Virus record (IMG/VR): IMGVR_UViG_3300045125_000140
Location: 25,214 to 89,213 of that record
Strand: one strand, 5' to 3'
From: a virus
DNA: 64,000 nucleotides
In this document: in pieces, positions 7,569 to 35,998 of the stretch
Position numbering within the stretch: position 1 is the first letter of the stretch
Layout: each line of letters begins with the position of its first letter
Position numbers and translations under genes: made by a program
The notes under the pieces: model-generated
Told to the model about the DNA's origin: nothing
Seen by the model: the letters and a program-made list of their open reading frames with translations, nothing else
Database searches by the model: none

Positions 7569-8425
7569 GCTCGTCCGGCAAGAAGGGTAGCGGCGCGGGG
7601 GCCTTAGCCGGCTTCTTCGCCGCAGGCTTCGGAGGAGCCTTGGTGGCCGGCCTGCTCTCCGGTACCTTTACAGGTTCCGCGGGTCTGCTGGCCGGGGCCG
7701 ATTCAACTTTTGGCTTTTTAGGCAATACTTCGGGCGCTTTAAGTTTGAACTGCTCTTCGTTATATCTCTTCAGCAGTTCAATCAGATCGTTTCTTGAGGA
7801 TGACTCTTTGAATGCGGCTATGTTAGGTGGAACTAGCGGGCCCTTCCAAGGAGCAGTGGGGCCTACGACCACAGGCACATCGTGCTGAATGCCGCCAACC
7901 AGTGCAGCCTTGTGAGCGGCTTTAATCGCAGAGTTTATTTCGGCGGCGGTCGGCTTACCCTTTACTTTGGGCTTTAGATGCGTGCTCATCGCGGAGCGCT
8001 GGTCGATATGATATGTCTTATCCCTGTTTCCAGCTTTTCTTCATTGCTCCGCCTGTGTCATCCGCCACAACCCAGCCCTTGCCCGGAATAAATAGCCAGG
8101 ATCGCTCTGGAATAGCGGAAGGATCGACAGCTGCTCCTGGCTGGCTGGCTATTCCGCCGTATGCGGTGTCACGATCGATTCCTCGCTTGGCGTGCCCCTC
8201 GCAGCATGTGGGACATGGGCAGTAATTGGTGAGCTTGGCCGAGATCGTTTTAAAGCCTTCCGGAAGCGGCTCGAGTTTCGGAATATTTAGATCTTTTATA
8301 TCTTGGCCGCCCGCTCCAGCGGTAAGCGCCGCGGCTAACCCAGCGTTACGCAGAACTTCCTTAAATCCGGCTTCCTTTTGGAGCTCGTCCAGAAACGCGT
8401 CAAATACAACGGCGTGTCGGCTCAT
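7549..8425 (-). CDS. 3D-domain (lytic transglycosylase-like) protein with N-terminal tag and Pro/Lys-rich tail; frameshift near 8020
   Basis: Motifs TNYCPCPTCC, TAYG, AAVDPSAIP and VADDTGGAMK. Removing one G at CAGGGATAAG gives ...KQDKTYHIDQRSAMSTH, which supplies the third Asp and fuses it to ORF 7549..7989. The N-terminus has FDAFLDELQKEA. Confidence 0.7.
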
Positions 8426-8882
8426 TGCATCTGGGGGAGCCGTGAGGCGCTGTCGCTTCTGGGAATCCTCTGGACTGAGCGTCGCGCGATTTCTTTGCCA
8501 TGTAGCTTGCGCCCATCGCGCGCGACGCGGAAGTGGTCGGGTCTGCCGACGGAGTAACGGCGCTCGTGCGCAACGGATTGGTCTTCGGAGGCGGAGGAGG
8601 CGGCGTCTCGTAAGACGAGGTGGACGGATTCTGCGCCGTCGGCTCCGCCGGCTTGGGCAAATTCATCCAGTCGCTCTTGCTCATAGCTATCTTCGCCATC
8701 GCGCTGACGAACACCTGCCCAAACCCGGCTGTCTTATTGTGGGTTTGGGCGAGGTATTGCGGAAGAATCGCTTTGGCGAAGCCCGACTTCCCCATTATGG
8801 CGTCCGGCGGAACATTAGCGAACATGCCCTTGGCGATGTTCTCGGATGCGCAGGACGCTAATTTGAGGAAGGCGTTCGGCAT
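8400..8882 (-). CDS. Hypothetical virion-associated protein with KxA motifs
   Basis: 160-aa ORF with AFLKLAS, NKTAG and AMAKIAM. Confidence 0.55.
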   Translation of the reverse strand: MPNAFLKLASCASENIAKGMFANVPPDAIMGKSGFAKAILPQYLAQTHNKTAGFGQVFVSAMAKIAMSKSDWMNLPKPAEPTAQNPSTSSYETPPPPPPKTNPLRTSAVTPSADPTTSASRAMGASYMAKKSRDAQSRGFPEATAPHGSPRCNEPTRRCI

Positions 8883-8886
8883 TATA

Positions 8887-9303
8887 TCACTTACGGCCGA
8901 ACAGGCCTTTAAGCTTGCTCATGAAACCTTGACCCTTTAAGTGTTTTAGATATTGTTCCGCAAGTTCGTTACGGCGAGCCATCTCCTCGGTAAGATTATG
9001 CTTCGATCTCGCGCCGAGAACACCACCGGTTGCTCCGCCGAGCAGTGTTGATCCTAAGCCTACCGTCTTCATCTTCTCTTCGAGAAGATTGTTGAACATC
9101 GAGTCATGCATCGGGGAGTTAGGCATGGGGAATTTCCCCATTCCAGGAACGTCAATCGCAAGATCATCAACACCCTTTGCGGCGAGAAGAGCCGATAAGC
9201 CCGCTCCGCCAAGGCCGCCTAAAAGAAGGCCCTTAAGTGTTCCTGATCCAGCACCGGCGATTTTTTCAAGTTCAGTAAAGAAACCAAGTTCAAATGAGTT
9301 CAT
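8887..9303 (-). CDS. Tagged protein with glycine-zipper segments
   Basis: Starts MNSFELGFFTELEKIAG; contains GLLLGGLGGAGL and LLGGATGGVLG. Confidence 0.8.
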   Translation of the reverse strand: MNSFELGFFTELEKIAGAGSGTLKGLLLGGLGGAGLSALLAAKGVDDLAIDVPGMGKFPMPNSPMHDSMFNNLLEEKMKTVGLGSTLLGGATGGVLGARSKHNLTEEMARRNELAEQYLKHLKGQGFMSKLKGLFGRK

Positions 9304-9386
9304 GTGATATCACTTTCCTGAGAGAAGCGCTTTGAGCTTGTCTTTGAGTTCCACACGTATCTATTATAGGATTTTTGGTAGTCGTA

Positions 9387-10025
9387 TCACCGGTCACGTA
9401 CATCAAGTTGGTATGTTCCAAATACAGAGGGAAACATAGCTCCTCCGAGGGCCGCAGGAACACCTAACGCGAGAGCGTTAGATAAACGCTGTCTGGCGCC
9501 GCCGTTACCGATCGGGGCAGACGCGCCGAGTGCTGCGCCAAGGAGGCCGGTTATTGCAGCGGCCTTCCGCCGGCTAAACTTCGGCTCTAGCGCTTCATTG
9601 TATAAGTCCTTATTTAGACGGGTTGCGGCGGTTATTGCAGGCCCGACTGCCCCGCCTAAAAATTGCCCATAGAGTTGGGCCTTCCTGCTCTTACCCAGAG
9701 TGGCACCGAGGTGACTGCCGGCGAGCTGTCCGGCGGTTGAGAGACCAAGATCTAGTAGTAAGTGCTTATTCGTATAAGGTTCCTTGTCAACTTCGGGAGG
9801 AGAGTCAAAAACTACGAGCTCATGGTCATTTGTTCCCGGTATCGGCCTACGCATCGTACGTACTCTCGGATTATCTTCGAAATAGTCGGGCAAAAATTCT
9901 TTCGGTCCACGCCACCGTGTGTTGCCCAGCATGTCGTATGTCACCACCATCGGCTCGACGGGGCTTGCGGATGCCGACGCAACCTTAATAAGTTCGTCAA
10001 AGAAGCCGAGTTCGAAGCTGTTCAT
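9387..10025 (-). CDS. Tagged protein, paralogue of 10022..10792
   Basis: Starts MNSFELGFFDELIKVAS; shares the hydrophobic C-terminal domain. Confidence 0.8.
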   Translation of the reverse strand: MNSFELGFFDELIKVASASASPVEPMVVTYDMLGNTRWRGPKEFLPDYFEDNPRVRTMRRPIPGTNDHELVVFDSPPEVDKEPYTNKHLLLDLGLSTAGQLAGSHLGATLGKSRKAQLYGQFLGGAVGPAITAATRLNKDLYNEALEPKFSRRKAAAITGLLGAALGASAPIGNGGARQRLSNALALGVPAALGGAMFPSVFGTYQLDVRDR

Positions 10026-10792
10026 ATCAGGCTTTCGTTGTTCCGAAGCAAGGCGGGCGACCCAGCACCAAAAGCGGCCGCCGGAATACCGAGCGAGAGA
10101 GCTGCGGCTAGGCGATGTCTGGCGCTACCGTCTCCCATCGGAGCAGCTGCGCCAAGCGCCGCACCAATGAGCCCGGTTATTGCACCGGCCTTTGCCCGGC
10201 TAAACTTCGCCTTTTTGCCCTGCTCTTTTAGCTTCTTATTGGAACGGATTGCCGCATTTATTGCCGGCCCGACTGTCGCGCCTACAAATTTGCCCAAGTC
10301 TTCGTGATCCTCGTGTCCACCCATAACGCGGGCGAGGCGTTTTCCGGCAAAGCCGCCGCCGAGGCCGAGCGCGATATCAATTAGATCGTCTTTAATCGTT
10401 TCAGGTGCGCCAGTAGGAGTCGAGAGAATGTTGTCGACAGTCTTCTTTAATCCGCCCGATTCAGCGGACTTGCTCATATCGCCGCCTTGATTACGCGCAT
10501 CTCTAATGGCCTTAACCTTGGCGTATCTCTTGGCGCGGTCCATTACGGCAACATCATCGGCTGTGGGCGCTTTGGATCTGGCCTCTCTTGTCGGATCTTT
10601 GCTTACCGGTCCGCCACCAGGAGCTCGCTGATCTTGTTGGCTGTCGCGGTGAGCCATCGCGCCAAGATCCGCTTTGCCGCGCTTACCTAAAACGGGTTCC
10701 ATTTTTGGGTCGCGGTATAACTCGTAGAGCTCTTTGCTGCTTGTTGCGATTTTTTGCAGCTCGTCAAAGAAACCAAATTCAAAATGGTTCAT
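10022..10792 (-). CDS. Tagged protein, paralogue of 9387..10025
   Basis: Starts MNHFEFGFFDELQKIAT; ATGA overlap with the next gene. Confidence 0.8.
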   Translation of the reverse strand: MNHFEFGFFDELQKIATSSKELYELYRDPKMEPVLGKRGKADLGAMAHRDSQQDQRAPGGGPVSKDPTREARSKAPTADDVAVMDRAKRYAKVKAIRDARNQGGDMSKSAESGGLKKTVDNILSTPTGAPETIKDDLIDIALGLGGGFAGKRLARVMGGHEDHEDLGKFVGATVGPAINAAIRSNKKLKEQGKKAKFSRAKAGAITGLIGAALGAAAPMGDGSARHRLAAALSLGIPAAAFGAGSPALLRNNESLI

Positions 10793-10800: not shown

Positions 10801-11190
10801 CTATGAGGTTTTATAAGCGGCCAACGTGCTGTTCGGTACGGTGTGATAAAGAGGTCCTTCGAGGCCGTAGGCTTTCATGCCTAGCTTGCGACGTTCCGGG
10901 AAGGTCAGCGAGGGAGCGAAGTAGTCCGTGATACGGCTCATGCCTCGTGATTGGTAACCCCTCGATTTTCGGTCCGCCTCTCTAAATTGACTCATATTAT
11001 GAATCAAGGCGCCAGTTTCAGCTCGGCTCCGTTTACCGAAGCCGCGCGTCGCCCTGTCCGGAATCATTTCATCAAATAAGCCCGAATGCCGAGGGGACGG
11101 ATAGCGCTGGCGCAGCTGATCCAGGCTCGGATCTACCGCGTCAGCAATTTTCTCTAATTCGTCGAAGAATCCGAATTCAAAGTGATTCAT
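10801..11190 (-). CDS. Tagged protein
   Basis: Starts MNHFEFGFFDELEKIAD. Confidence 0.8.
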   Translation of the reverse strand: MNHFEFGFFDELEKIADAVDPSLDQLRQRYPSPRHSGLFDEMIPDRATRGFGKRSRAETGALIHNMSQFREADRKSRGYQSRGMSRITDYFAPSLTFPERRKLGMKAYGLEGPLYHTVPNSTLAAYKTS

Positions 11191-11199: not shown

Positions 11200-11645
11200 T
11201 TAATTACTGCCTTTAACGGCACGATCTTTAAGAGCTTTGTATCCCATGGGGGACACTTGTTCGAGTGGGTCATTTCCTATAACTGGGCTCAGGGATACGC
11301 GCGTTAGCCCGAACGAGTCTTTTTAAAGTGGATAGATGCTTCAGTCCTCGCGCTATCTTACCCCCGCCAAAGCTCCCATAAAACCGGTGGCCGGAGAAGC
11401 GATCGACGCAGCTGCGGAATGGCCTCCTTTAGCTGCGTCGTAAACGAGCGGAGCTGCGGCGCCGATTATGCTGCCTGCTACTCGACCGTCTTGGTCGGCC
11501 GTGTCGAGATCCTGAGCGTGATGGCGGCTGGTTCCTTCACTCGGAAATCCGTAAGGAATTTTTTCTTTGGGAAGCTCAAAGTTCCGTCTTCCACGGTAGC
11601 CAGCTTTTCTAGCTCGCTGAAGAAGCCGAGTTCAAAGGCATTCAT
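11200..11645 (-). CDS. Tagged protein, frameshifted (missing from ORF track)
   Basis: The ATG at 11645 reads MNAFELGFFSELEKLATVEDG. A later frame ends YKALKDRAVKGSN* at 11200. Confidence 0.6.
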
Positions 11646-12349
11646 TGAGCGCCGCCCTGCGGTTGTGGATACGGGATGGGATTAGGCGCGCCTTCTAATC
11701 CGAAGGGTTTGTAGAGCTGCTTCCGTTGTCCCGCATCATTAACGTAGGTGCGCCGGGAAAGATCACGCGGATTCATCCGATCGGACTGATCAAAAACTGT
11801 GTCGAGGCGACTTACCTTCTTTTCGCGCTGCTCTCTGTTTGCAACTTGGCGAGGCTGCCCGTCCTGGTCAACGTTTTCGCCGAGCTGCGTTACGCCTGGG
11901 ATCGGAATAGTGGTATTAAAGAGACTCCGTCGTGCATTATCTTTACTGAATCTTGGATCCGACGGGTTTTCCGAAGACAGGCGACTAGCTGTGCCTCTTG
12001 CGAATTGAGTCAAGCCGGTCGCTCTGGCGCCAATATCTGCACGGCTCGCGTTTGGATACATCCTTCTATACCCAGCCATTCTTTCGGCCACTGCATCTCT
12101 GTCTGTGGCAGTCTTATTTATCACGGTCGTTTTGAGTTTGTTTGAGACGCCAGGGCCTAAATTTGGCCCCTCAGTCACCTTCGGTTTCGGAGGTATGAAG
12201 TCATTCTTAGTACCGCCATACGGACGGCCGGCCATGGGCATACTGGAACGCAGACGGCCGACCTCGAGCATAACGGGGTGAGGATCGTCGGACGAACTGG
12301 CTGCTATTTTAGCCAGCTCATCAAAGAAACCGTATTCAAAGTGATTCAT
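11642..12349 (-). CDS. Tagged protein
   Basis: Starts MNHFEYGFFDELAKIAA; internal NKTAT; C-terminal half similar to 10801..11190. Confidence 0.8.
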   Translation of the reverse strand: MNHFEYGFFDELAKIAASSSDDPHPVMLEVGRLRSSMPMAGRPYGGTKNDFIPPKPKVTEGPNLGPGVSNKLKTTVINKTATDRDAVAERMAGYRRMYPNASRADIGARATGLTQFARGTASRLSSENPSDPRFSKDNARRSLFNTTIPIPGVTQLGENVDQDGQPRQVANREQREKKVSRLDTVFDQSDRMNPRDLSRRTYVNDAGQRKQLYKPFGLEGAPNPIPYPQPQGGAQ

Positions 12350-15546: not shown

Positions 15547-15555
15547 GAATAATAG
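15540..15555 (+). promoter_or_regulatory. Conserved phage promoter-like motif, copy 1
   Basis: GGCATAAGAATAATAG followed by a GTGGCT...AGCCAC hairpin. Confidence 0.7.
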
Positions 15556-15641
15556 TGGCTGCTTTTGGCGTCAGAGCCACTCTGTCCGGGCAGACTCCCG
15601 GTGAAGTCTTTCTGGCCTAGCTAGCCAGAAGGGAGGCTGCG

Positions 15642-16259
15642 ATGGGATTCCGCATCGTAGTCAGTGTTGTGGAGGAGGGCCTCGTGCACGAGGGTCGAGT
15701 GATCGACCCCGCCACGGGGCCGGTGGTGTTAGACCCGAAGCGCGGTGTTCGGGTCTTGGTCGCAGCGCGCCCAGGTAACAAGCCGGGGCAGACGCTGCTT
15801 CAACTCCTTGTTCGCGTGGGCGCGGACAAGGAGTACGTCGTTCCAGCCCACATTCCGGGAGAGTACGCGCTGCTTCCGGAATTCGGTCACAGGGTAAAAC
15901 ATGCGACCGAGGTTAAGGATCCGTTGGAGCGGGTCCTCCGCGAGGAGGGGATTCCCCTTGCGGCCGCGTCCTTCTACCACGACCCCACGGTTGCGGTAGA
16001 AGTCGAGATCGCCACGGAGACGTCCGCGGCGGTTAAGCCCTGGAATTTCACCAAGGCGCAGACGGCTGTCCTGAATAAGGGCGGCCGTGTGTCTTTCGGG
16101 CCGTGGACCGAGCTCGGGCCCGGGCTCGGTCGGGCCCGGAAGGCAACATTCACCCCCTCCTCCAAGGGGGTGGTGATCATCCTCAGCGACGTTCGGGTGG
16201 GCCGCCACCCCGGCGTCGCCGAGCGCAGGATCGAAAGATCCTTATCGGCAGGGGCGTGA
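15642..16259 (+). CDS. Hypothetical protein
   Basis: 205 aa with a GGGAGG RBS; followed by a coupled 33-aa ORF (16256..16357, MTPAELKAALAAAK...). Confidence 0.7.
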   Translation: MGFRIVVSVVEEGLVHEGRVIDPATGPVVLDPKRGVRVLVAARPGNKPGQTLLQLLVRVGADKEYVVPAHIPGEYALLPEFGHRVKHATEVKDPLERVLREEGIPLAAASFYHDPTVAVEVEIATETSAAVKPWNFTKAQTAVLNKGGRVSFGPWTELGPGLGRARKATFTPSSKGVVIILSDVRVGRHPGVAERRIERSLSAGA

Positions 16260-16357
16260 CGCCTGCCGAACTCAAGGCCGCGCTCGCGGCCGCGAAGCAG
16301 GAGCGCCTGGACGTGATCCAGGCTTCTTCTGTGTCCGCGGCTGCGGCACAGGCCTGA

Positions 16358-16413
16358 AAAAGGGTGGGGTACAGGGGGCAGTGCGGCCCCTGTACCCAAC
16401 CCACCCTATTTTT
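16358..16413 (+). terminator. Long hairpin terminator
   Basis: AAAAGGGTGGGG TACAGGGG...CCCCTGTA CCCAACCCACCCTATTTTT. Confidence 0.65.
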
Positions 16414-16585
16414 AACCCAATTACACCCAATTAGGCCAAAAATAGCCATTTTTGTCATATTTTGGCTATATAGGCGGTTTTTAGGCCAAAATAGGCTATT
16501 TTAGCCCAAAATAGCCCAAAATGCCCTATTTTGGCCTAAAATGGCCTATTTAGCCCCTATAGGGCCAAAAACAGGGGTATTTTAT
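16410..16585. repeat. AT-rich degenerate ~10-bp periodic repeat tract
   Basis: Repeated GGCCAAAA/GCCCAAAA/GGCCTAAAA units and their complements, with quasi-palindromes such as AAAATAGGCTATTTT. Confidence 0.7.
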
Positions 16586-16601
16586 GGCACAAGAATAATA
16601 G
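16586..16601 (+). promoter_or_regulatory. Promoter-like motif, copy 2
   Basis: GGCACAAGAATAATAG. Confidence 0.7.
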
Positions 16602-16980
16602 AGGACATATTAGGTTGCAAACTAATGTGTTCTCAAACCCCGGGCATCGGACTAACTCACCGATGCTCTCAAGGGGTGCCCCCAAGGGCTGGCTCGACGA
16701 AGGAGCAGCCGCCGTATTAGGAACCGGCGAGGGGCAAGGTTGACACCAGACCTGATAAGGTGTCCCTCTACAACCAAAATGGTGAATCTGCGAATCGAGT
16801 CGGCAGATTCTTAATTGTAGAGGCGGTAAGTCGCGGGAAGGTCCCGCCCATGGTATGGCTATACCCGCTCACCCTAGCGAAAAGGGGGGATGTGGCAAGT
16901 CCCTTAAACTTGTGCTCCGCATTCTACGGGCAGATTCATTGTGGGTCTGCCCGTGGAGTTCGGTTCAAACAACATGTGAG
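16601..16980 (+). ncRNA. Candidate structured ncRNA or long structured leader (~380 nt)
   Basis: No convincing ORF. Consecutive stems at 16601-16634, 16642-16668, 16765-16823 (nested 16784-16810) and 16924-16956. Confidence 0.5.
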
Positions 16981-18409: not shown

Positions 18410-18431
18410 GCGCTTTTTAATTGGAGGTAGC

Positions 18432-21205: not shown

Positions 21206-21409
21206 TCAGTCTTCGTATTCTTCGGTGTCGTCTACCCGCTCATAGTCGGGTTCGCCGCCATCGTCGGAATACTCCTCATCTGAGTCGGTATCAGACTCTT
21301 CGTCGGAGGTATCCTCGTAGTCCTCGTCAGCGGCATCCGAGTCGTCCTCGGGTTCAGGCTGATTGGGCGCGGCGAGTTTGTAAAGCTCATCTTCGTCTAA
21401 ATGGGTCAT
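21206..21409 (-). CDS. Highly acidic small protein with DELYKLAA
   Basis: Asp/Glu-rich 67 aa with an AAGGAGG RBS. Confidence 0.65.
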   Translation of the reverse strand: MTHLDEDELYKLAAPNQPEPEDDSDAADEDYEDTSDEESDTDSDEEYSDDGGEPDYERVDDTEEYED

Positions 21410-22309: not shown

Positions 22310-22633
22310 TCAATTAGCTACTGCGCCAGGAGGTGCGGATGACTGGAACGACATGCTCGCTCCGCCGGTGGGGTCTTTACCGCCACGGAAGGCGTTAACT
22401 GCGTTTCTGATTCCAGTGAGCTTTTCGTGCCACCCACCAAGTGGGTTGTCGGTACCTTCTCCCATACCAGCTTGTCCTGCCGATTGACCGCCGCGAATCG
22501 CTCCCATCGCCGATAGGCCGCTGGCGAGGGCGCCAGCACCTCTAAGAGCTGTCCCGACTACGCCAATAAACCCAACCTTAGTCAGCTCGTCGGTAAAACC
22601 GAATTCGATCTTGGAAAGTCTTGAATCACGCAT
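22310..22633 (-). CDS. Tagged Gly-rich protein
   Basis: IEFGFTDELTKVG. Confidence 0.7.
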   Translation of the reverse strand: MRDSRLSKIEFGFTDELTKVGFIGVVGTALRGAGALASGLSAMGAIRGGQSAGQAGMGEGTDNPLGGWHEKLTGIRNAVNAFRGGKDPTGGASMSFQSSAPPGAVAN

Positions 22634-22969: not shown

Positions 22970-23566
22970 TCAGCGCACCGGGTTTGGGGGAAGCTGTCCG
23001 GCTTTAATCTTAGCGAGGGCGAGCTCGTTTTGGTATTTGTTTGCTTTCGTAAATCCGGCAACGCCGCCCATCAAGGCACCCAGCCCGAGTATGGGCAAAG
23101 AGGCCATCGGATTTATTGCTGTCGCTCCGGTAGCCAGTAAGTTAAGTCCGTGAGTCAGACCGCCTATGCCTAATCCGCCGATTAAGCCTCTACCGAACCC
23201 ACCGGCCCTAGACATGCCAGGTTTAGCTAACATACTCCCGCCGTACATCATACCGTAGAGAGCGGGGCTGATGAGGGGGAACGAAGATTTTACGGCGCCG
23301 TCGGCGACCCCAACTCCTGGAGTCAGCTTAGCGGCTGCAGCCGGATCAGCGGCACTCGATGTTATATGCGCGTCCGCTCCAGTGTCGTGGAGCATGTTGT
23401 GGCCGAAGGACTTAATCCCGCTCCAAGTAGAATCGGCTATTCCTTTGATATTTTCGCCAACGCCTTTAAGCCCTGCGCCTATGGAGCTGAAATCGACGCC
23501 TTCTAAAAATCCGAGTTTTTCAAGCTCGGAAATAAATCCACGTTGTATAGCGTCTGAGCGGTCCAT
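22970..23566 (-). CDS. Tagged glycine-zipper protein
   Basis: IQRGFISELEKLG. Confidence 0.75.
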   Translation of the reverse strand: MDRSDAIQRGFISELEKLGFLEGVDFSSIGAGLKGVGENIKGIADSTWSGIKSFGHNMLHDTGADAHITSSAADPAAAAKLTPGVGVADGAVKSSFPLISPALYGMMYGGSMLAKPGMSRAGGFGRGLIGGLGIGGLTHGLNLLATGATAINPMASLPILGLGALMGGVAGFTKANKYQNELALAKIKAGQLPPNPVR

Positions 23567-26403: not shown

Positions 26404-26670
26404 TCAGTGCTTGCCGCGGTTATAGGACTTGGACGTGACCGATATGTTGCTGGTTCCGTTATTACGAGGATTTCCGTCCTTATGGTCTATGTCCTTGCCG
26501 TCGTTCTTGCTCACCCTGCCCGACGCTAATAGCCGCCTTCGAATCTTGTTCCGATGCGCTCTGTCTACCTTGGAAGCCCGCGACGCCTGAAACTTTCTAT
26601 ATTCGTCCTTATAGTCGCGGGCGGCCAACTTCTCCAGCTCGTCAAAGAACCCATATTGAAATGGATTCAT
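26404..26670 (-). CDS. Tagged HNH-like protein
   Basis: MNPFQYGFFDELEKLAA followed by RDYKDEY...KDIDHKDGNPRNN...N...SYNR. Confidence 0.75.
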   Translation of the reverse strand: MNPFQYGFFDELEKLAARDYKDEYRKFQASRASKVDRAHRNKIRRRLLASGRVSKNDGKDIDHKDGNPRNNGTSNISVTSKSYNRGKH

Positions 26671-27002
26671 TGGGCACCCGCCTTGATTGATCTCGCGATT
26701 TGATCGTATTTATAAGACGGAAGTGTTCTTGACGTATCTCGCCAGTTATTTTTCATGGCGGCGACAAATCCGTCCGGAGCCGGCTTCCAGTCAGTCCAAG
26801 CCGCGTTGTTCTCGGGCGTCACCAAGCTGTATGTCGGGTTGGGCGGCTTAATGGGATTGCCTTGCATATCGCGATGCGCGCCGTCGGGCGTGACGGCCCA
26901 CCTGAACGCCTTACCGTGATGCGCGTCCCAGTCGATGGGTTCGCGCTCGGCGGCGATCTTACGCAGCTCGTCGAAGAATCCTAATTCGAAGGCACGCACC
27001 AC
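26667..27002 (-). CDS. Tagged protein
   Basis: RAFELGFFDELRKIAA. Confidence 0.75.
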   Translation of the reverse strand: MVRAFELGFFDELRKIAAEREPIDWDAHHGKAFRWAVTPDGAHRDMQGNPIKPPNPTYSLVTPENNAAWTDWKPAPDGFVAAMKNNWRDTSRTLPSYKYDQIARSIKAGAQ

Positions 27003-27008: not shown

Positions 27009-27311
27009 TCAGCAGTTCCAGGCCCGAAGCGACTTATTGATTCTCGAGTCCGGATCTCTCGAGGTCTTGGCAGAGGTCAGCTTCGCCTTCATCCCACGCA
27101 TACGTGCGCAGAAAGATTTGCGGCGAGAGGCGTCCTTCTTGGTGCGGGGATTTGGCGCCGGCGCTTTTAGATTTCCGCCGTGAGCTCTGTTGTAGGACGC
27201 ACGTCCTTTAGCGTTGAGTCCGCCGCGAGGGTTCTTACCCTCTTTGCGGGTCCAAGCTTCGGAGGCGATCTTTTCCAGCTCATCAAAAAATCCGAATTCA
27301 AAGCTGTTCAT
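27009..27311 (-). CDS. Tagged basic phage protein
   Basis: MNSFEFGFFDELEKIAS followed by AWTRKEGKNPRGGLNAKGRASYN...RRKSFCARM. Confidence 0.8.
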   Translation of the reverse strand: MNSFEFGFFDELEKIASEAWTRKEGKNPRGGLNAKGRASYNRAHGGNLKAPAPNPRTKKDASRRKSFCARMRGMKAKLTSAKTSRDPDSRINKSLRAWNC

Positions 27312-27318: not shown

Positions 27319-28052
27319 TCACGTGTAGTTATGTTTGGATCTAACCCGCGCCGCCGGCGTATTAGATACGAATTGGTTAGAGGAACTTAATTTCTTCTTG
27401 TCCGTGGCGACCTGCTCACCTTTTGAGAGGCTCTTCCACTTTTTCTCTGGGAGATAGCGGGAGGTGCGGCCGCTGTCCTTTTTGCGATAGGGCTGGTGCC
27501 CGGCCGAGTTCGCCACTTCTGTTTCGTCCACTTGACCATTTTGTTGGACGATGCAGACGGCTTACGGCCAGAATATCCGCCGCCGCTTTTCTTGTATATT
27601 TTCGTTGCAAGTTGCATCGCCCTGGCTGAGTGCTTACCGCCCATACGGGCTTTGGCCTGAGCCTTGGCCCGAGCCCACAGAGACGGATTTTTCTTGGTGG
27701 CCACGCCTTTGGCGGCCCCGGTCTTGTTCATATCCGCTGCTTCGCGAAGCGCCTGGCGAAGTTTGCGAACGCGATCTAACTTCTCACCTACATGATGTTT
27801 AACATCATGCACGCCCTTAGCCACGACGGGAATAGCCGCGGCGGCCGCGCCAGGGCCCCAGGCAAAAGTCGTGTCGCCTCTTGAAAGTCCCGCCATGGCG
27901 GCGGGGATCGCGCTCATCGCTGCCGTGGACGCGGAGTCCTTGGCGATTGGTTTGGCGGATCGCCTAAGTGCAATCGTATACTCTCGAAGCGTATCGCCGA
28001 GAGCGCCTAGCTTTTCCAGCTCGTCAAAAAATCCATATTCAAGAGCGTTCAT
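27319..28052 (-). CDS. Tagged two-part basic protein; frameshift near 27480
   Basis: MNALEYGFFDELEKLG; internal MNKTGA then NPSLWARAK...HSARAMQLATKIYKKSGGGY; C-terminus RYLPEKKWKSLS in another frame. Confidence 0.7.
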
Positions 28053-28062: not shown

Positions 28063-28707
28063 CTAATCTCGCTTATTAAGACGCTTCCAATGCTTGTAGG
28101 CATCACGCTCGTCGAGAGTTGACAACGTCCCTCCCGTAAGCGCGCCTAAGAGAGCGGTTATAAGCGGAACCCCAGTGTTTCCATCGGTCATGGCCTCGAG
28201 GGGAAGACCGGCTAAACCTCCGAGGAGCCCGCCGCCAAGAGCTGATTTCAATACGCGAAGAGGCGCGGTAGCAGTGCGTGTGTGCCCGCCGAGGCCGGCC
28301 ACTGCAAAGTCGGAGGCCGCAATCTTTTGCAGCTCATCGAAGAAGCCGTACTCGAAAGCACCCTTCTTCTCGATAGCCTCCAGGCGCTCGTAATAATCCT
28401 TATCCTCGGTGAGGTGGTCCTTCGCGATCTCCTTCGCGATCTGTTTCTTCTTGGTGTGCTCGCGTTCGTGCTTAACGCCCTCTTTGAGTTTTTCTTTATT
28501 AAACTCGGAGTCGGGCTTGTTGTCGCCCTTACCGCCCTCGAGGATCTCGCCGTTATTCGGATGCTCGTCTTCCATCTCTTCCTCGGCTTTCTTGGTGTGC
28601 CAGGGAAGGCCTTTATTCTTCGCACCCTTTTCGTGCGCCCAGCGCTTGGCGATTTTAGGGTGCTTCGCCCACATCAGGCGGCGTTGTGCTTCTGATTTAA
28701 ACGGCAT
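28063..28707 (-). CDS. Multi-module protein with internal tag
   Basis: MPFKSEAQRR module, GVKHEREHT...AKDHLTEDKDYY module, internal AFEYGFFDELQKIAA, then a glycine zipper. Confidence 0.8.
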   Translation of the reverse strand: MPFKSEAQRRLMWAKHPKIAKRWAHEKGAKNKGLPWHTKKAEEEMEDEHPNNGEILEGGKGDNKPDSEFNKEKLKEGVKHEREHTKKKQIAKEIAKDHLTEDKDYYERLEAIEKKGAFEYGFFDELQKIAASDFAVAGLGGHTRTATAPLRVLKSALGGGLLGGLAGLPLEAMTDGNTGVPLITALLGALTGGTLSTLDERDAYKHWKRLNKRD

Positions 28708-31233: not shown

Positions 31234-32796
31234 CTAGGCCACACCAGAGCTAGATGCCGGAGGCGCGTCGGGAGGAGGTATTAAAGGTCTTGGCGCTCTT
31301 CGAGCCGGCGCTGCTCCTGGCGCGGGCGGGGAGGTGTCGCGCCTGGAGGCGGAGCCGCGGCGCCTGGGGAGGAGTTGCTGCTCCTGGCGGAGGAGCTGCC
31401 GCTCCGGGCGGAGGCGGTCCTGCGGCAGGTTTGCCGCCAAAGACTCCGGCAACAGATTTACCGAACCTGTACGAAAGGGAACCCTTATCAACAGGTGGGC
31501 CAAGTTCGGGATTTTTTCTCCGGCTCCAGCGCGGTAATCAGAGACGGGCCGATCATTGGCGACTGCGCCACGACCAAAAACTCCCCCGAGTCGTTGGGGT
31601 ATGCTCTTCTTTTCCTGCACTCCTTGTTGGAGCTTGGCTTGTTGAGCACGAGTTTGTTCCAGAGCGCCCTTAGCAGTATCTAGCTGTTTGCGCTCCTCCT
31701 CGGACAAGCCCGCCGGCGTTTTCGCTTTAGCCTCTAAATCCGAAACAGTCTTTTTATTCTGTGCGGCTTGTGCCGAAGTCTCGTCAAGTAGCTTGGCTTT
31801 ACGAGCTCTGGCTACGTCAGCGTCGGTCTGGTATTTACCTAACGTGACATTTTTAAGAGCCATTTGACCAAACGATCGAGCAGCGCGACCAAAGATTCCG
31901 CGTTCCTTCCCGCCCGAGGCGGCGTAGGATAGGCTGGTATCTAGTTTCGCCTTCTCCTTATCCAGAGACTGCTGCACCCGAATAGCGGACTGATACGCGC
32001 GCTCCTGGTCAGGTCTTAGAGGCTGGCCGCTCTTTATCTGCTCTTCGAAGCCCTTGATCGCGGCTTCATTTCGGCCTCTGTTCTTCTCTATGTCGCTGAG
32101 TCGGCCCTTAATTCTGGTGTACTCGTCCTGGCGGCCCTCAAAAGACTTCTCTCTTCCGGCGCGCTGAACTTCGTAAACACGCTGGCGCTCTTGATGCAAT
32201 CCGGCTAAGTCTGATGCGGCGGACTGAATTCGATTCATAACCTCGGGTGGGACCGAGCCGGGCCCACCTCTCGGATCGACGCCTTCGGTTGCCCGGGCCA
32301 TCTCCATTACAGCGCCTCTCTCCTGGTCGCTTCCGGTAGCGAGCATTCGAGCTAAAGATCCCTCGTCAAGGGCTTTATGCTCCGGAGCGAGCGTCCTTAG
32401 CCGGATAGCCAGATCTCTAGCGAGGTCTCGATCTGCCTGAGTAACACCAAACTCATCCGCCTCGAGTCGAGACTTTGGTTTCTGATCCCGGTAACGACCG
32501 CCATCTCTACGGTCTCGGTCACGACGGTCGCCACGGTCACCACGGTCGCCACGGTCGCCGCGATCACGCCTATCACGGAAATAACGGAAATGATCGACTA
32601 GGCGGTCCTTACCACGACCGCCGTCCTTTGCAACCTTAAAGAAGCCGTCTACGACCTTGGAAAGAGGCCCAGAAACCTCCGCGGTTTGGAAGTATATCGT
32701 CTTATTATCCGATGCGGCCGCGACTTTATAAAAGGCGGACGAAAGAGTTAATACTACGGGAGATCTATTATCAGGCACTGTGTGGACCCTCACCAA
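31234..32796 (-). CDS. Coiled-coil protein with DRG repeats and a Pro/Gly/Ala-rich tail
   Basis: 520 aa with AFYKVAA, GFFKVAK and (DRG)n at about 32520-32580; indels likely in the 3' repeat. Confidence 0.7.
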   Translation of the reverse strand: MVRVHTVPDNRSPVVLTLSSAFYKVAAASDNKTIYFQTAEVSGPLSKVVDGFFKVAKDGGRGKDRLVDHFRYFRDRRDRGDRGDRGDRGDRRDRDRRDGGRYRDQKPKSRLEADEFGVTQADRDLARDLAIRLRTLAPEHKALDEGSLARMLATGSDQERGAVMEMARATEGVDPRGGPGSVPPEVMNRIQSAASDLAGLHQERQRVYEVQRAGREKSFEGRQDEYTRIKGRLSDIEKNRGRNEAAIKGFEEQIKSGQPLRPDQERAYQSAIRVQQSLDKEKAKLDTSLSYAASGGKERGIFGRAARSFGQMALKNVTLGKYQTDADVARARKAKLLDETSAQAAQNKKTVSDLEAKAKTPAGLSEEERKQLDTAKGALEQTRAQQAKLQQGVQEKKSIPQRLGGVFGRGAVANDRPVSDYRAGAGEKIPNLAHLLIRVPFRTGSVNLLPESLAANLPQDRLRPERQLLRQEQQLLPRRRGSASRRDTSPPAPGAAPARRAPRPLIPPPDAPPASSSGVA

Positions 32797-32837: not shown

Positions 32838-33135
32838 TCAATCGGGGTCGGTTTCGTCATTCAGCGGGTCGTCTATAATATCGCCCGGCAAAACCTCAGT
32901 AATTGCCGTAACCATATCCAGCCTGAAGCACTGGTAGAATGGGTACTTTATTTCGTAGAACTTCGGCGTGACTTCTTGGTCTTCGGTGAGCTCGAATTTT
33001 TTGACGACGGCGGGGAGTCCTTTGCAGACGACGACGGCCGTTTGCGTGTCCGAGAAGTAGACTTTGTAGACGCGGCAGCCTTCCCACTCGCGGGCGGTTT
33101 CAGCCTTGGCAAACTCACGGAAGAAGTCCCGGACG
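32838..33135 (-). CDS. Hypothetical protein overlapping the 3' end of the phosphoesterase gene
   Basis: Globular-looking frame VRDFFREFAKAETAREWEGCRVYKVYF...; start uncertain. Confidence 0.5.
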
Positions 33136-34294
33136 CTCCCTGCTTGTACGCCTCCAGTAATTGAACGCCGGTTTCTGTCGGTAGTACCTGGATCTTCCTC
33201 GTCTTCGGCCATAGGATCGCCATATAATCGGGATTTAAATTCTCCCACGCAAAGCCCTGCTCTATTGCGTAGTCGTCGTACTCGCTTCTCTTAAAGGCGC
33301 CGACCTGGATACCCCAGCGCGTTTTGCCTTTAAGCATGCGCTCCTGTACGCCGGAGCGATGTGTGTGGCCTGCCACGATTATGTCCGAATCGAAATAATC
33401 GAACATATGGTGCTTCGATACGCCGTGGGCCGGATTCAGCTCGGAGCCGCCCTTGACCTTGTGGCGGAGAAGGATCCGATACGGGACATCTCCGACATTG
33501 ACGGTTAGAAGCATCTCGAACGGGTGGTACGGGATCTTCTTCGACAGCTGAAGCATCACGGTGTCGAGGTGGGAGAACCCGGTCATGCGCCACGAGATCA
33601 GGTCGTGGTTACCGGCAACGACGCCCACGAGTCGGCCGGCTTTTACCACCTGCTCGAGCCAGTAGGTCGCGGCGAAGATTTCTTCGGGAACGTCGATCGG
33701 AGTCTTATGGCGCTCGACCATAACGTTGCGCCAGATCATGGAGTCGAGAACGTCTCCGATGGACGCGGTGTAGACGTCGATGTCCTTGCGGCTAAATACG
33801 TTAAGGAGGTATTCGAGTCTCGGGTAATCGGTCGAGGCCGACCCGATATGAATATCGCCGAGGAATACGATGCCGACAGGCCGATCGGTTTTGATATTGA
33901 CCACGCGGCTTGACGACATTTCGACTTCGTCGACGCGCTTGGCGAATCGGTCCTTCAGCTTGCCCCAAGCCTCGAGCCCGCTAACTTCAATGGGCGCGTC
34001 GGATTCGGAGGTTTCGCTAAGCTTAATCAGGTCATCCTTTTTAGGCTCCTGTGTTTCAACCAAAGACACAGAGCTAAACGGCTTATTCTTTTCGAGACAG
34101 TCTTTAATGTTGACCCACGGAATTCCGAAGTTGGTGATTACGTACATCTCGCTCATCACCGGCATCCGTAAGTCTCTGAGTGCTTCTCTAACCGTATGAA
34201 CTTTCAAGCTACCGTACCGCCGCATGCTAAGCTCGGCGGCTTTTCGGAACATATCCTCTACCTCGCTCAACGTGAACTTCATGTACTTGGTCAC
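32948..34294 (-). CDS. Calcineurin-like metallophosphoesterase
   Basis: GDIHIG, IGD, GNHD, H and GHTH motifs. Confidence 0.85.
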   Translation of the reverse strand: MTKYMKFTLSEVEDMFRKAAELSMRRYGSLKVHTVREALRDLRMPVMSEMYVITNFGIPWVNIKDCLEKNKPFSSVSLVETQEPKKDDLIKLSETSESDAPIEVSGLEAWGKLKDRFAKRVDEVEMSSSRVVNIKTDRPVGIVFLGDIHIGSASTDYPRLEYLLNVFSRKDIDVYTASIGDVLDSMIWRNVMVERHKTPIDVPEEIFAATYWLEQVVKAGRLVGVVAGNHDLISWRMTGFSHLDTVMLQLSKKIPYHPFEMLLTVNVGDVPYRILLRHKVKGGSELNPAHGVSKHHMFDYFDSDIIVAGHTHRSGVQERMLKGKTRWGIQVGAFKRSEYDDYAIEQGFAWENLNPDYMAILWPKTRKIQVLPTETGVQLLEAYKQGASGTSSVSLPRLKPPASGKAAASTKSTSRTRKRPSSSAKDSPPSSKNSSSPKTKKSRRSSTK

Positions 34295-34605: not shown

Positions 34606-34800
34606 TTAGTCGTCGGAACTTTTGTTTTTCGGCGCTTTATCCATATCAGCGGATAAGCGCCATCCGAGGAAGAGGCCGGCCGGAAGGGACAGCATCGGCA
34701 AAACTTTAGCCCAGTCGACTTTTTTGAAGTCTGGTTTCATCTTGCTGAGCTCGCTGAAGAACCCGCGAGAGACTGGCTGCTGATCTTTACCGTCGAACAT
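34606..34800 (-). CDS. Small tagged membrane protein
   Basis: RGFFSELSKM followed by a TM helix. Confidence 0.6.
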   Translation of the reverse strand: MFDGKDQQPVSRGFFSELSKMKPDFKKVDWAKVLPMLSLPAGLFLGWRLSADMDKAPKNKSSDD

Positions 34801-35219
34801 CAGAGTAGATCAGGGTGCTTGGTCGGTACGTACACTTCGCGGATTACGAAGTTGTATCCACCGCCTGTCGCAGTGGCTGTAATGTAAATTGGCTCATTTA
34901 CTCCGGTAACAAACCACCCGTCCGGATTAAACGGGCAAACAAACATCGCGCTGCCTTTGTCTAAATGAATTCCAGGGATTGTTTTTGTCGCGCCGTTTGA
35001 CGCGTTAGCTATCGTATATGATAAATCGCTACCAGTATTTGGATTTGGGGATAGATGATAAGCGACTATCGAGTAGTAGTGTCCGGCCTTAGCAGCCAAA
35101 ACTAGGGTAGCCGTGTTTGCCGCCGCAATTGTCCCAGTAACACGGGTTGTTCCGACGAGAGTATCCGGGCCGTTAGCTATCGCCTGCGAAACTTGAAACG
35201 ACTTAGAATTTGTAGACAT
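34800..35219 (-). CDS. Beta-rich putative virion protein
   Basis: 139 aa, Thr/Ala/Gly-rich. Confidence 0.6.
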   Translation of the reverse strand: MSTNSKSFQVSQAIANGPDTLVGTTRVTGTIAAANTATLVLAAKAGHYYSIVAYHLSPNPNTGSDLSYTIANASNGATKTIPGIHLDKGSAMFVCPFNPDGWFVTGVNEPIYITATATGGGYNFVIREVYVPTKHPDLL

Positions 35220-35222
35220 AGG

Positions 35223-35504
35223 TCACTTCCTCAGTAGGTGGTAAAGACCACCTAACCCTGCACCGATTAGGGCGCCTTTGATGGCGCGCTCTTGTTTTGA
35301 TTTAGACTCGTCTCCGAGAAGGAGATTTGCGAGAGCGCCGGCTCCGCCAAACGTGGTCATGCGGCCCAACGCCGACGGGCCTGAGCTGCTGGGGAGATTT
35401 ATAAGGATCTCCTGGGGAAGCTGGGGAGCCATCTGAGCTTCTTGTTCCGCCGAAAGGCCGCGAGATTGTTTCTTATCTTTCGACTTATTCTTTCGGGAAA
35501 CCAT
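35223..35504 (-). CDS. Glycine-zipper protein
   Basis: GALIGAGLGGL. Confidence 0.6.
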   Translation of the reverse strand: MVSRKNKSKDKKQSRGLSAEQEAQMAPQLPQEILINLPSSSGPSALGRMTTFGGAGALANLLLGDESKSKQERAIKGALIGAGLGGLYHLLRK

Positions 35505-35527
35505 ATCGACGATGCGCTCTACGTCGT

Positions 35528-35998
35528 CTACCGAGAGGCCGCGCGACTCGCGCCGATCTTCTCTATCCGAGCCATACGATCTTTGGCGAGACCCGCCGCG
35601 TCCTGATCGGCCCCCAAAGTCACGGTCGGGCCCGGCATTTGATCGGCCGCCCGATCTTCTGCCGGAGTTCCCCCGGATTGGTTACCTGTACGGTAGGCCG
35701 GGCTAGAGATCGGAGGCAGCGGCATGGCCAGTTTGGAAAGAAGGGCGCCCATAAACGCCGCTTCGGCTTCCTTATGGTGCTCTTTTTCAAGACCTAGGTC
35801 CTCTGCTGCATCCTCGGGCACAGGCTTTTCGGATTCATACTCACGACGCTCCTTCTTAAGCCCATACTTTCGTTTAGCTTCGGGCGGAATCGGCTTAGAC
35901 GCATGATATTCATGCGACGCCAATTTGTTCATGAAGGAGTTCGTAACAATATCTAGCATGTGCAGGGGGTCCCTAGGAATAGGATAGGCTGGGGGCAT
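35528..35998 (-). CDS. Protein with two degenerate tags
   Basis: NSFMNKLAS and AFMGALLSKLAM. Confidence 0.65.
   Translation of the reverse strand: MPPAYPIPRDPLHMLDIVTNSFMNKLASHEYHASKPIPPEAKRKYGLKKERREYESEKPVPEDAAEDLGLEKEHHKEAEAAFMGALLSKLAMPLPPISSPAYRTGNQSGGTPAEDRAADQMPGPTVTLGADQDAAGLAKDRMARIEKIGASRAASR

What the first reader, a model, noticed from the sequence alone, without database searches (positions are those of the whole stretch)
8018..35998. A shared N-terminal peptide tag (FExGFFDELxKIA) on more than 20 unrelated late proteins
Seen: near-consensus copies start the ORFs at 9303, 10025, 10792, 11190, 11645, 12349, 26670, 27002, 27311 and 28052. Looser copies occur at 8425, 21195, 21409, 22633, 22958, 23566, 24507, 26364, 30334, 32796, 34800 and 35998. 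All are on the virion-gene strand, and I saw none in plus-strand genes. Codons vary synonymously (Gly as GGT, GGC, GGA, GGG), so selection is on the peptide and not the DNA. The sequence after K-x-A is mostly unrelated. Known: T4 internal proteins use a short capsid-targeting sequence removed by the prohead protease. Inference: an amphipathic helix plus KxA cleavage site acts as a modular capsid-loading address for a large set of injected cargo proteins.
Basis: partly seen in the sequence, partly recalled or inferred. Interest (0 to 1): 0.88.

Follow-up and report, generated by a model that had tools for sequence, protein, structure and literature searches.

The report
Capsid-loading tag on phage cargo proteins
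An uncultured 155-kb freshwater phage starts about two dozen unrelated small proteins with the same 16-residue peptide, which ends in the motif that its own T4-type head protease appears to cut, so they are probably loaded into the capsid and clipped as phage T4 does with a few internal proteins, though packaging has not been shown.

Summary
Fourteen copies of MNxFExGFFDELxK[ILV][AG] lie in the window, all on the minus strand. Thirteen sit at an ORF start and one is internal. Shuffled sequence gives none. About nine looser copies follow, plus four outside the window.

Codons vary synonymously, and the sequences after the tag are unrelated.

The last residues, [LM]-x-K-[ILVT]-[AG], match a motif that is four-fold enriched only in the head-assembly proteins. 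That motif marks the conserved propeptide boundary of the capsid protein in six related genomes. It also flanks the catalytic domain of a protease whose model folds like T4 gp21.

Two cargos, DUF6321 and a small HNH protein, are common phage proteins. Here the tag sits exactly where their initiator Met would be, so a cut after Ala16 would restore the native N-terminus.

Five related contigs of the same RNA-polymerase-encoding clade carry the tag. So do 86 protein clusters in public data, nearly always at residue 1.

Best reading: a T4-like capsid-targeting propeptide with a new cut code and a much larger cargo set. Packaging, cleavage and injection are all inferred. The amphipathic-helix claim is not supported.

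This scan had already noted the K-x-A code in this genome's head module, and similar tag systems in other large phages.

The parts
9256..9303 (-). Tag MNSFELGFFTELEKIA at the start of ORF 8887-9303 (138 aa; the cargo is Gly-rich and hydrophobic, glycine-zipper-like)
   Evidence: (34 bits)
9978..10025 (-). Tag MNSFELGFFDELIKVA at the start of ORF 9387-10025 (212 aa)
10745..10792 (-). Tag MNHFEFGFFDELQKIA at the start of ORF 10022-10792 (256 aa)
11143..11190 (-). Tag MNHFEFGFFDELEKIA at the start of ORF 10801-11190 (129 aa)
   Evidence: 38.6 bits
11203..11645 (-). Tagged gene (MNAFELGFFSELEKLA) that is split by a frameshift here. The 55-aa ORF 11478-11645 continues in another frame to 11203, whereas the homologue P0133 is intact at 148 aa.
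12302..12349 (-). Tag MNHFEYGFFDELAKIA at the start of ORF 11642-12349 (235 aa)
8018..8425 (-). ORF with a loose tag (MSRHAVVFDAFLDELQKEA). The cargo has a borderline 3D-domain match of the kind found in peptidoglycan hydrolases.
   Evidence: PF06725, E 1.2e-4, just under the curated cut-off
21206..21409 (-). 67-aa ORF with a minimal tag (MTHLDEDELYKLA) followed by an extremely acidic tail
22310..22633 (-). ORF with tag ..KIEFGFTDELTKVG at residues 8-21, followed by a Gly/Ala-rich hydrophobic cargo
   Evidence: 27.9 bits
22626..22958 (-). ORF with a loose tag ..IIERAFMDELQKTA, followed by a Gly-rich hydrophobic cargo
   Evidence: ('mid' pattern)
22970..23566 (-). ORF with tag MDRSDAIQRGFISELEKLG (198 aa)
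   Evidence: 25.4 bits
24154..24507 (-). ORF with tag (V/M)SPIFRGFISELTKIA (117 aa, GTG start)
   Evidence: 27.6 bits
26152..26364 (-). 70-aa basic ORF with a minimal tag MFSDSFISSLTKLA
26404..26670 (-). Tag MNPFQYGFFDELEKLA fused to a small HNH protein. Untagged homologues begin M-ARDYKDEY.., so the tag replaces their initiator Met.
   Evidence: (PF13392)
26667..27002 (-). ORF with tag (V)VRAFELGFFDELRKIA (111 aa, GTG start)
27009..27311 (-). Tag MNSFEFGFFDELEKIA fused to DUF6321. Untagged homologues of 85-87 aa begin MSEAWTRKEGKNP.., and here the tag is followed directly by SEAWTRKEGKNP.
   Evidence: (PF19846, 4e-25)
27387..28052 (-). ORF with tag MNALEYGFFDELEKLG (221 aa)
28063..28707 (-). 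Two-module protein. An N-terminal DUF5661 module is followed by an internal full tag (..KGAFEYGFFDELQKIA, 28318-28365) and then a glycine-zipper module.
   Evidence: 32 bits; homologue P0176
29762..30334 (-). ORF with a loose tag MNSFERTFMREFVKIA (190 aa; Gly-rich hydrophobic cargo)
31234..32796 (-). 520-aa ORF with two minimal sites near the N-terminus (SAFYKVA, GFFKVA), followed by an Arg/Asp/Gly repeat. Its status as a tagged protein is uncertain.
34606..34800 (-). 64-aa ORF with the address half only (..SRGFFSELSKMK). It has no A/G at the cut position.
   Evidence: 13.6 bits
35528..35998 (-). 156-aa ORF with a minimal tag ..TNSFMNKLA

Best explanation
The 16-residue peptide is a two-part N-terminal propeptide that works like the capsid-targeting sequence (CTS) of phage T4 internal proteins.

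Residues 1-10 (M-N-x-F-E-x-G-F-F-D) form an address. It is found on the tagged proteins and not at the other protease sites. It probably binds a component of the scaffolding core of the assembling prohead.

Residues 11-16 (E-L-x-K-[ILV]-[AG]) form the recognition and cut site of the phage's own 490-residue prohead protease. This enzyme has a T4-gp21/herpesvirus-assemblin fold (genome 126080-127552, outside the window).

The proposed sequence of events is as follows. Tagged proteins are made together with the structural genes and co-assemble into the prohead. The protease then cuts after K-x-A/G at the capsid-protein propeptide, the scaffold proteins, its own linkers and the tags. The mature cargo, with a near-native N-terminus, stays in the head and probably enters the host with the DNA.

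What is shown: the motif statistics, the conservation, the protease fold and the exact grafting onto known proteins. What is inferred: binding, cleavage, retention in the capsid and ejection.
For: 1. K[IVLMT][AG] occurs 42 times in ten head-assembly proteins, against 10.3 +/- 2.8 in shuffles. It is at expectation in the tail, plus-strand and other gene sets.
2. In four related genomes the most enriched ORFs again lie in the head module.
3. The capsid protein has one such site. It is positionally conserved in six genomes (EKLG, EKVG, EKMA, EKLG, EKIA, DKIA) directly before the conserved mature N-terminus, although capsid identity falls to 35%.
4. The protease model (pLDDT 84.6) matches T4 gp21 5jbl_B at Z 9.4, rmsd 2.9 over 137 residues, followed by about 25 herpesvirus protease entries at Z 4.4-7.4. 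Across 65 homologues H130 and S181 are invariant. The sites K30-x-A32 and K250-x-A252 flank the catalytic domain.
5. The head sites share only [LMI]-[EV]-K-[LIVT]-[AG] with the tag. The F-E-x-G-F-F part is specific to the tag. T4's CTS is split the same way: targeting residues 4 and 7, processing residues 8 and 10 (PMC9026906).
6. Grafting. DUF6321 homologues of 85-87 aa begin MSEAWTRKEG, while the window's copy reads tag|SEAWTRKEG. Variant leaders ending KLA|G, KIA|A and KSA|S sit at the same junction. The small HNH protein shows the same: M-ARDYKDEY against ..EKLA|ARDYKDEY.
7. Five related contigs carry the tag at ORF starts. At least 12 strong copies lie in one 94-kb fragment.
8. In 1.84 billion representative proteins, 86 clusters match at E<=1e-3, nearly all at residues 1-17. 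They fall into 46 unlinked sequence families.
9. Tags also precede internal modules of polyprotein-like proteins.
10. All tags are on the strand of the head and tail genes.
Against: There is no proteomic, N-terminal or expression evidence, and no tag-bearing phage is in culture.

The exact scissile bond is inferred only from conservation boundaries.

The protease matches gp21 by fold only. Neither a Pfam scan nor a profile search of PDB sequences found a sequence-level match.

The partner that would bind the address is unknown.

One tag-like ORF (34606-34800) lacks A/G at the cut position.

In SPN3US, a giant phage with a related head system, about 80% of head proteins are not cleaved at all (PMC10052503). 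A tag is therefore not needed for packaging in general.

The helical, amphipathic character is not established.
Confidence: 0.62

Rival explanations
1. The tag is a cleavable propeptide only. The head protease removes it, but it has no addressing role. It might mask or inactivate the cargo until maturation, or the upstream residues might be an extended recognition surface (exosite) for the protease. Cargo would then enter the head by other means, or be cut outside it.
For: The cut-site half is the part shared with the head proteins. Most head proteins of SPN3US are packaged without being cleaved. No binding partner for the address was identified.
Against: Ten further residues are conserved across genomes whose capsid proteins are only 35-63% identical. 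These residues are absent from the roughly 48 other candidate sites, which is more than a gp21-type site is known to need. In T4 the equivalent N-terminal half is the targeting determinant.
Confidence: 0.15
2. The tagged proteins are transient components of the scaffolding core rather than delivered cargo. They would be recruited and clipped like scaffold proteins, then expelled or degraded during maturation.
For: Several tagged proteins are low-complexity, Gly-rich or highly charged, as scaffold and core proteins tend to be. Some carry additional internal K-x-A sites.
Against: Most have a single site, at the end of the tag. Two are intact, widely conserved, folded phage proteins (HNH and DUF6321). 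The set turns over rapidly: no tagged ORF of the window's genome finds a BLASTP match (E<1e-3) among those of the closest long relative, the 94-kb contig whose capsid protein is 63% identical. Such turnover is unlike structural core parts.
Confidence: 0.1
3. The tag is a recognition leader for some other machinery. Candidates are a RiPP-like modifying enzyme, the MoxR-VWA pair or the ubiquitin-like cassette encoded nearby, or a membrane or secretion address.
For: An earlier scan note (e1-127136) found that a shared phage N-terminal tag tracks a radical-SAM enzyme rather than the capsid. A MoxR AAA+/VWA pair lies between the tag clusters. Many cargos have glycine-zipper segments.
Against: No radical-SAM gene was found in the 155 kb held. 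The end of the tag is the same motif that marks the capsid-protein propeptide, the scaffold proteins and the protease linkers. The tag is acidic. It lacks the basic n-region and the long hydrophobic core of Sec or Tat signals, as the sequence itself shows. Its E-L-x-K-I-A spacing differs from the double-glycine leader (E-L-x-x-I-x-G-G). Cargos reach 461 aa.
Confidence: 0.06
4. The shared N-termini reflect chance or common descent, that is, a paralogous family whose C-terminal parts have diverged.
For: One pair of tagged ORFs (10022-10792 and 9387-10025) shares a 56-residue stretch.
Against: Shuffles give no matches. Of 44 post-tag sequences, 42 have no similar partner. Two cargos belong to different, well-populated families whose normal members lack the tag.
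Confidence: 0.02

Closest known systems
Phage T4 capsid targeting sequence (CTS) on internal proteins IPI, IPII, IPIII and Alt, removed by prohead protease gp21 (Mullaney & Black 1996; reviews PMC3012670, PMC9026906)
   Same: Both are short N-terminal propeptides (10-19 residues in T4, 16 here) on otherwise unrelated and fast-changing proteins. Both have a targeting half followed by a processing half. Both end in the cut motif that also marks the capsid and scaffold proteins. In both, the protease has the gp21 fold and shows signs of cutting itself at both ends.
   Different: The cut code is K-x-A/G, not (L/I)-x-E. The tag sequence is unrelated to T4's MKTYQEFIAE (quoted from memory). About 16-25 proteins per genome carry it, against a handful in T4. 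Tags also occur inside polyprotein-like proteins. The protease is 490 aa with a C-terminal helical domain. Nothing here has been shown by experiment.
Propeptides of head and ejection proteins in giant phages phiKZ, 201phi2-1 and SPN3US, cut by gp175/gp245 after (S/A/G)-x-E or A-x-E (PMC10052503, PMC5694885)
   Same: A gp21-type protease processes many head proteins, and a cut motif repeated in propeptides predicts the substrates.
   Different: Those propeptides are mostly long (111-254 residues) and are not one shared tag. The cut there is after Glu. About 80% of SPN3US head proteins are uncut.
Herpesvirus assemblin (UL26 family), a protease-scaffold fusion that cuts at (V/L)-x-A|S
   Same: The protease model matches assemblins at Z 4.4-7.4. 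The P1 residue is a small one, Ala (from general knowledge of assemblin sites). The layout is a protease followed by a cleavable linker and a C-terminal helical domain.
   Different: Assemblin cuts only itself and the scaffold and is not known to load tagged cargo. A Lys at P3 is not part of the assemblin rule.
Cultured distant relatives: Salmonella phage Arash (OQ632216; PMC10585845) and Vibrio phages D181, D148 and D69
   Same: Their proteases are 35-37% identical over the catalytic domain. Their capsid proteins have ..K-E-A-G just before the conserved ..FVRQKLRE. Their scaffold-like proteins are rich in K-x-A. In Arash, mass spectrometry detected 116 proteins in purified particles.
   Different: The tag HMM finds nothing in either genome. 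They can be used to test the cut code but not the 16-residue address.

Membership tests
T4-type capsid-targeting sequence (CTS) system | A short N-terminal peptide shared by otherwise unrelated proteins of one phage | tested here: met
   There are 14 strict copies, 13 of them at ORF starts. Among 44 post-tag sequences only 2 similar pairs were found.
T4-type capsid-targeting sequence (CTS) system | The peptide ends in the same motif that marks the maturation sites of the capsid protein, the scaffold proteins and the protease | tested here: met
   K-x-A/G is enriched four-fold in head-assembly proteins only, is conserved at the capsid-protein propeptide boundary, and flanks the protease domain.
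T4-type capsid-targeting sequence (CTS) system | The phage encodes a gp21-type prohead protease | tested here: met
   The AlphaFold2 model matches 5jbl_B at Z 9.4, rmsd 2.9 over 137 residues. H130 and S181 are invariant. No sequence-level match was found.
T4-type capsid-targeting sequence (CTS) system | The T4 cleavage rule (L/I)-x-E, and similarity of the tag to the T4 CTS | tested here: not met
   The motif here is K-[ILVT]-[AG]. The tag consensus MNxFExGFFDELEKIA shows no likeness to the T4 CTS (the T4 sequence is from memory). This is therefore an analogue or variant, not a sequence relative of the T4 tag.
T4-type capsid-targeting sequence (CTS) system | The tag is necessary and sufficient for encapsidation, is removed in the prohead, and the cargo is ejected into the host | not testable with these tools
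   No cultured tag-bearing phage and no proteomics are available.
gp21/assemblin-fold prohead serine protease (MEROPS S77/S21) | The assemblin-like beta-barrel fold | tested here: met
   By VIA-align, T4 gp21 scores Z 9.4 and herpesvirus proteases Z 4.4-7.4, covering model residues about 18-254. Foldseek ranks gp21 first, with probability 0.98 and E 0.01.
gp21/assemblin-fold prohead serine protease (MEROPS S77/S21) | Catalytic Ser and His at the positions equivalent to those of gp21 | tested here: inconclusive
   H130 and S181 are invariant in 65 homologues, but their structural equivalence to the gp21 catalytic residues was not checked residue by residue.
RiPP-type or double-glycine leader peptides | A dedicated maturase or C39 peptidase encoded alongside, and a short core peptide | tested here: not met
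   No radical-SAM gene is present in the 155 kb held. Cargos are 43-461 aa and include folded domains. A C39 peptidase was not searched for specifically.
Sec/Tat signal peptides | A basic n-region, a hydrophobic h-region of 10-15 residues, and an A-x-A signal-peptidase site | tested here: not met
   Read directly from the sequence. The tag is net acidic (E5, D10, E11, E13), has no long hydrophobic run, and ends K-I-A.

The most novel reading that the evidence does not exclude
A whole clade of uncultured phages that encode their own RNA polymerase may use a portable 16-residue 'load and clip' code: an address plus a Lys-x-Ala/Gly cut site, a specificity not described for gp21-family proteases. 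With it they could place two dozen or more freely exchangeable proteins in the capsid, including nucleases, a putative metallopeptidase, wall-hydrolase-like proteins, membrane-active proteins and highly acidic proteins. New cargo would be recruited simply by grafting the tag onto the first residue of an existing phage gene. If so, the tag is a ready-made index of the injected 'first-strike' proteome in metagenomes, and an orthogonal packaging tag for phage engineering.
Probability: 0.5. Interest if true: 0.72.

Novelty: new variant of a known kind. Interest (0 to 1): 0.6.

Why it matters
Proteins that travel inside phage heads are the first phage products to meet the host and its defences, and they are almost impossible to recognise from sequence. 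Here one short, strongly conserved tag lists them directly: about 25 per genome and at least 46 unrelated families in public data, nearly all of unknown function.

The two exact grafts onto common phage proteins show how new cargo is recruited. The K-x-A/G code also extends the known specificities of gp21/assemblin-type head proteases, which so far are cuts after Glu in phages and after Ala in herpesviruses.

The cut code, though not the address, can be tested now in cultured relatives (Salmonella phage Arash and Vibrio phage D181).

Tried and rejected
- Complex prediction with the full protease and a 36-residue tag alignment returned 'no answer' (score 0.00, controls not run). It gives no information either way.
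- Exact-word searches of the literature for the motif found nothing.
- Megablast of the region against cultured phages found nothing. TerL finds only relatives at 27% identity.
- phmmer of the capsid protein and of the 635-aa portal candidate against PDB sequences found nothing.
- A profile of the protease alignment against PDB sequences matched only designed coiled coils carrying K-K-I-A repeats, not gp21.
- The ESM Atlas gave nothing for the 583-aa head protein.
- The hydrophobic moment of the tag is moderate (0.3-0.6) and mostly no better than shuffles. AlphaFold2 of the tagged DUF6321 leaves residues 1-12 below pLDDT 50, apart from residue 9. The amphipathic-helix claim was therefore dropped.
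- I considered whether the single-chain RNA polymerase (2011 aa, outside the window) is tagged. Its N-terminal K-K-A is not conserved in relatives, so probably not.
- I looked for a shared promoter motif upstream of the tagged clusters by eye. Only scattered TATAAT-like boxes appeared, and I did not pursue it.
- The Pfam Radical_SAM family is absent from the genome.

Full report
**Setting.** The window is bases 25214-89213 of a 155,302-bp linear IMG/VR virus record, estimated at 81% complete. I read the whole record. The minus strand carries the tail and fibre genes (genome 0-32 kb; baseplate wedge) and a head module (115-155 kb). The head module includes a GpA-type large terminase, a major head protein and a 490-aa protein with a weak 'head maturation protease' match. 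No cultured phage is close at the DNA level.

**Observation.**
- A regex finds 14 copies of GF[FILMT]x[ED][LF]xK[IVLM][AG] on the minus strand and none on the plus strand.
- The back-translated DNA pattern gives 14 matches against 0.00 in 100 shuffles.
- A 16-position HMM scores the 14 copies at 25-39 bits. Weaker copies lie at window 34752, 22925, 30313 and 8425.
- Four further copies lie outside the window, all at ORF starts and all on the minus strand: genome 154358-154750, 120589-120819, 115051-115620 and, loosest, 15446-16924 (MRRLASSFEKIA).
- No plus-strand frame scores above 4 bits.
- Thirteen of the 14 copies start within 0-12 residues of a start codon. In this genome the core begins exactly seven residues after an ATG in 11 of the 16 strong copies.
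- One copy is internal, at 28318-28365.
- Codon use shows that selection acts on the peptide. Gly7 uses all four codons, and only 47% of identical-residue pairs share a codon.
- After the tag the proteins are unrelated. Among 44 tagged ORFs from six genomes, only two pairs are similar.

**What the end of the tag is.**
- K[IVLMT][AG] occurs 42 times in ten head-assembly proteins, against 10.3 +/- 2.8 in shuffles. These proteins are the ORFs between the 583-aa protein and the capsid gene, terminase excluded.
- The other gene sets are at expectation: terminase, capsid protein and the 1082-aa protein together (3 observed, 3.9 expected), tail proteins (18, 16) and plus-strand genes (35, 37).
- Small acidic ORFs next to the protease carry three or four (L/M)-E-K-(I/L/V)-A sites each. 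They behave like a T4 gp22-type scaffold.
- The capsid protein has a single site. In six genomes it sits at the same place, directly before the conserved mature start E(A/V)TGLYIQDKLRE. The middle residue and the A/G vary, and capsid identity falls to 35%.
- In four relatives the ORFs most enriched for the motif again lie in the head module.

**The protease.**
- The 490-aa protein has more than 300 homologues and no Pfam domain.
- Its AlphaFold2 model (pLDDT 84.6) has T4 gp21 as its top Foldseek hit (probability 0.98, E 0.01).
- VIA-align gives gp21 Z 9.4 (rmsd 2.9, 137 residues). About 25 herpesvirus assemblin entries follow at Z 4.4-7.4.
- Across 65 homologues H130 and S181 are invariant.
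- K30-x-A32 and K250-x-A252 flank the catalytic domain, in segments of low model confidence. This is the pattern expected of self-processing sites.
- A well-folded helical domain follows the linker. The layout therefore recalls protease-scaffold fusions.

**A two-part tag.** Aligning 48 candidate sites in head proteins gives [LMI]-[EV]-K-[LIVT]-[AG], with acidic residues upstream. The F-E-x-G-F-F segment does not appear. The last five or six residues of the tag are therefore the general cut site, and the first ten are specific to the tagged proteins. T4's CTS is organised the same way: targeting at residues 4 and 7, processing at residues 8 and 10 (PMC9026906).

**Modularity.** This is the strongest new evidence.
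- The cargo at 27009-27311 is DUF6321. More than 8000 homologues exist, typically 85-87 aa, beginning MSEAWTRKEGKNP.
- The window's copy reads MNSFEFGFFDELEKIA|SEAWTRKEGKNP.
- Three other homologues carry different leaders that end KLA|G, KIA|A and KSA|S at the same junction.
- The cargo at 26404-26670 is a small HNH protein. Untagged homologues begin M-ARDYKDEY or MAQARNYKEEY. The tagged ones read ..EKLA|ARDYKDEY.
- In both cases a cut after residue 16 would regenerate the native N-terminus.
- AlphaFold2 of the tagged DUF6321 leaves the tag unstructured and apart from the fold.

**Distribution.**
- An exact DNA-pattern scan of IMG/VR and a capsid-protein search found five contigs: 94.5, 22.5, 117.7, 209.4 (complete) and 42 kb.
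- All but the short 22.5-kb fragment share the capsid protein, protease, terminase, the 635-aa portal candidate and the 2011-aa single-chain RNA polymerase. The fragment lacks only the portal candidate.
- The clade fits the RNA-polymerase-encoding Caudovirales of PMC7481178.
- The 94.5-kb contig has at least 12 strong tags in one cluster, in a variant form M(x)F(T)xx[FL]FDELEKLA. The more distant genomes have three or four strong tags each.
- A profile search of 1.84 billion representative proteins found 86 clusters at E<=1e-3, nearly all matching at residues 1-17, with lengths of 43-461 aa.
- After tag removal these fall into 46 families unlinked by BLAST. Pfam recognises only one DUF5661 among them.
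- Three proteins carry two to four tags, each in front of its own module. One such module has an HExxH motif.

**Cargo in the window.** It includes:
- an HNH protein, a DUF6321 protein and a DUF5661-plus-glycine-zipper protein;
- a protein with a borderline 3D-domain match;
- several Gly-rich hydrophobic proteins;
- basic low-complexity proteins;
- one 67-aa extremely acidic protein.

**Cultured relatives.** Salmonella phage Arash and Vibrio phages D181, D148 and D69 have proteases 35-37% identical over the catalytic domain. In both D181 and Arash the capsid protein has ..K-E-A-G before ..FVRQKLRE, and the scaffold-like proteins are dense in K-x-A. Virion mass spectrometry of Arash detected 116 proteins. 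The tag HMM finds nothing in either genome.

**Comparison with what is known.** The system works like the T4 CTS (PMC3012670, PMC9026906). It differs in four ways: the cut code, the tag sequence, the number of tagged proteins and the internal tags. Known gp21-family phage proteases cut after Glu: (L/I)-x-E in T4 and A-x-E in SPN3US (PMC10052503). I found no paper describing this tag or this code.

**Earlier notes of this scan.** They reported the K-x-A code in this genome's head module (e1-5347361), which I re-derived independently. They also reported analogous tag systems with other codes in other large phages. One note warned that a shared phage tag can belong to a radical-SAM enzyme instead. 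No such gene is present here.

**Limits.** Cleavage, packaging, ejection and the binding partner of the address are inferred. The complex prediction gave no verdict. The amphipathic-helix idea is not supported.

Noticed in passing
window 11203-11645 (-): The tagged gene is split by a frameshift near 11544-11583. The 55-aa ORF continues in another frame, whereas the homologue P0133 is an intact 148 aa. It could be a pseudogene, an assembly error or a programmed shift.
   Followed up: partly
genome 126080-127552 (L007:18081-19553, -), outside the window: The gp21-fold protease carries a confidently folded C-terminal helical domain (residues about 300-490) behind a cleavable linker, like a protease-scaffold fusion. 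Several homologues of about 850 aa hold inteins (LAGLIDADG/Hint Pfam domains), including the copy on the 22.5-kb relative.
   Followed up: partly
window 21206-21409 (-): A 67-aa protein that is almost entirely Asp, Glu, Ser, Thr and Tyr after a minimal tag. Its composition resembles DNA-mimic proteins.
   Followed up: no
window 31234-32796 (-): A 520-aa protein with a long Arg-Asp/Arg-Gly repeat (RDRRDRGDRGDRGDRGDRRDRDRRDGG) after two F-x-K-V-A sites. It matches no family.
   Followed up: no
window 18408-20739 (+): A MoxR-type AAA+ ATPase and a VWA-domain protein form a plus-strand island between the two main tag clusters. Whether they have any link to the tagged proteins is unknown.
   Followed up: no
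window 27009-27311 (-) and its homologues: DUF6321 is a very abundant 85-87-aa basic protein. More than 8000 clusters were scored, and the 120 best listed are 77-97% identical to the window's copy, on many unrelated contigs. That is unusually strong conservation for a phage protein of unknown function.
   Followed up: partly
window about 16431-16540: An AT-rich intergenic stretch of repeated and inverted units (tttgggctattttgggctaaaatagcctattttggcctaaaa..). It may be a regulatory or origin-like element.
   Followed up: no
protein P0184 (metagenomic, 417 aa): A protein with two tags whose second module contains an HExxH motif (IAHEAFHAAHP). This suggests a metallopeptidase among the cargo of relatives.
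   Followed up: no
window 32948-34294 (-): A 448-aa calcineurin-like metallophosphoesterase (DNA-repair-exonuclease-type PHROG) lies inside the tag region. It has no tag and no K-x-A site.
   Followed up: no
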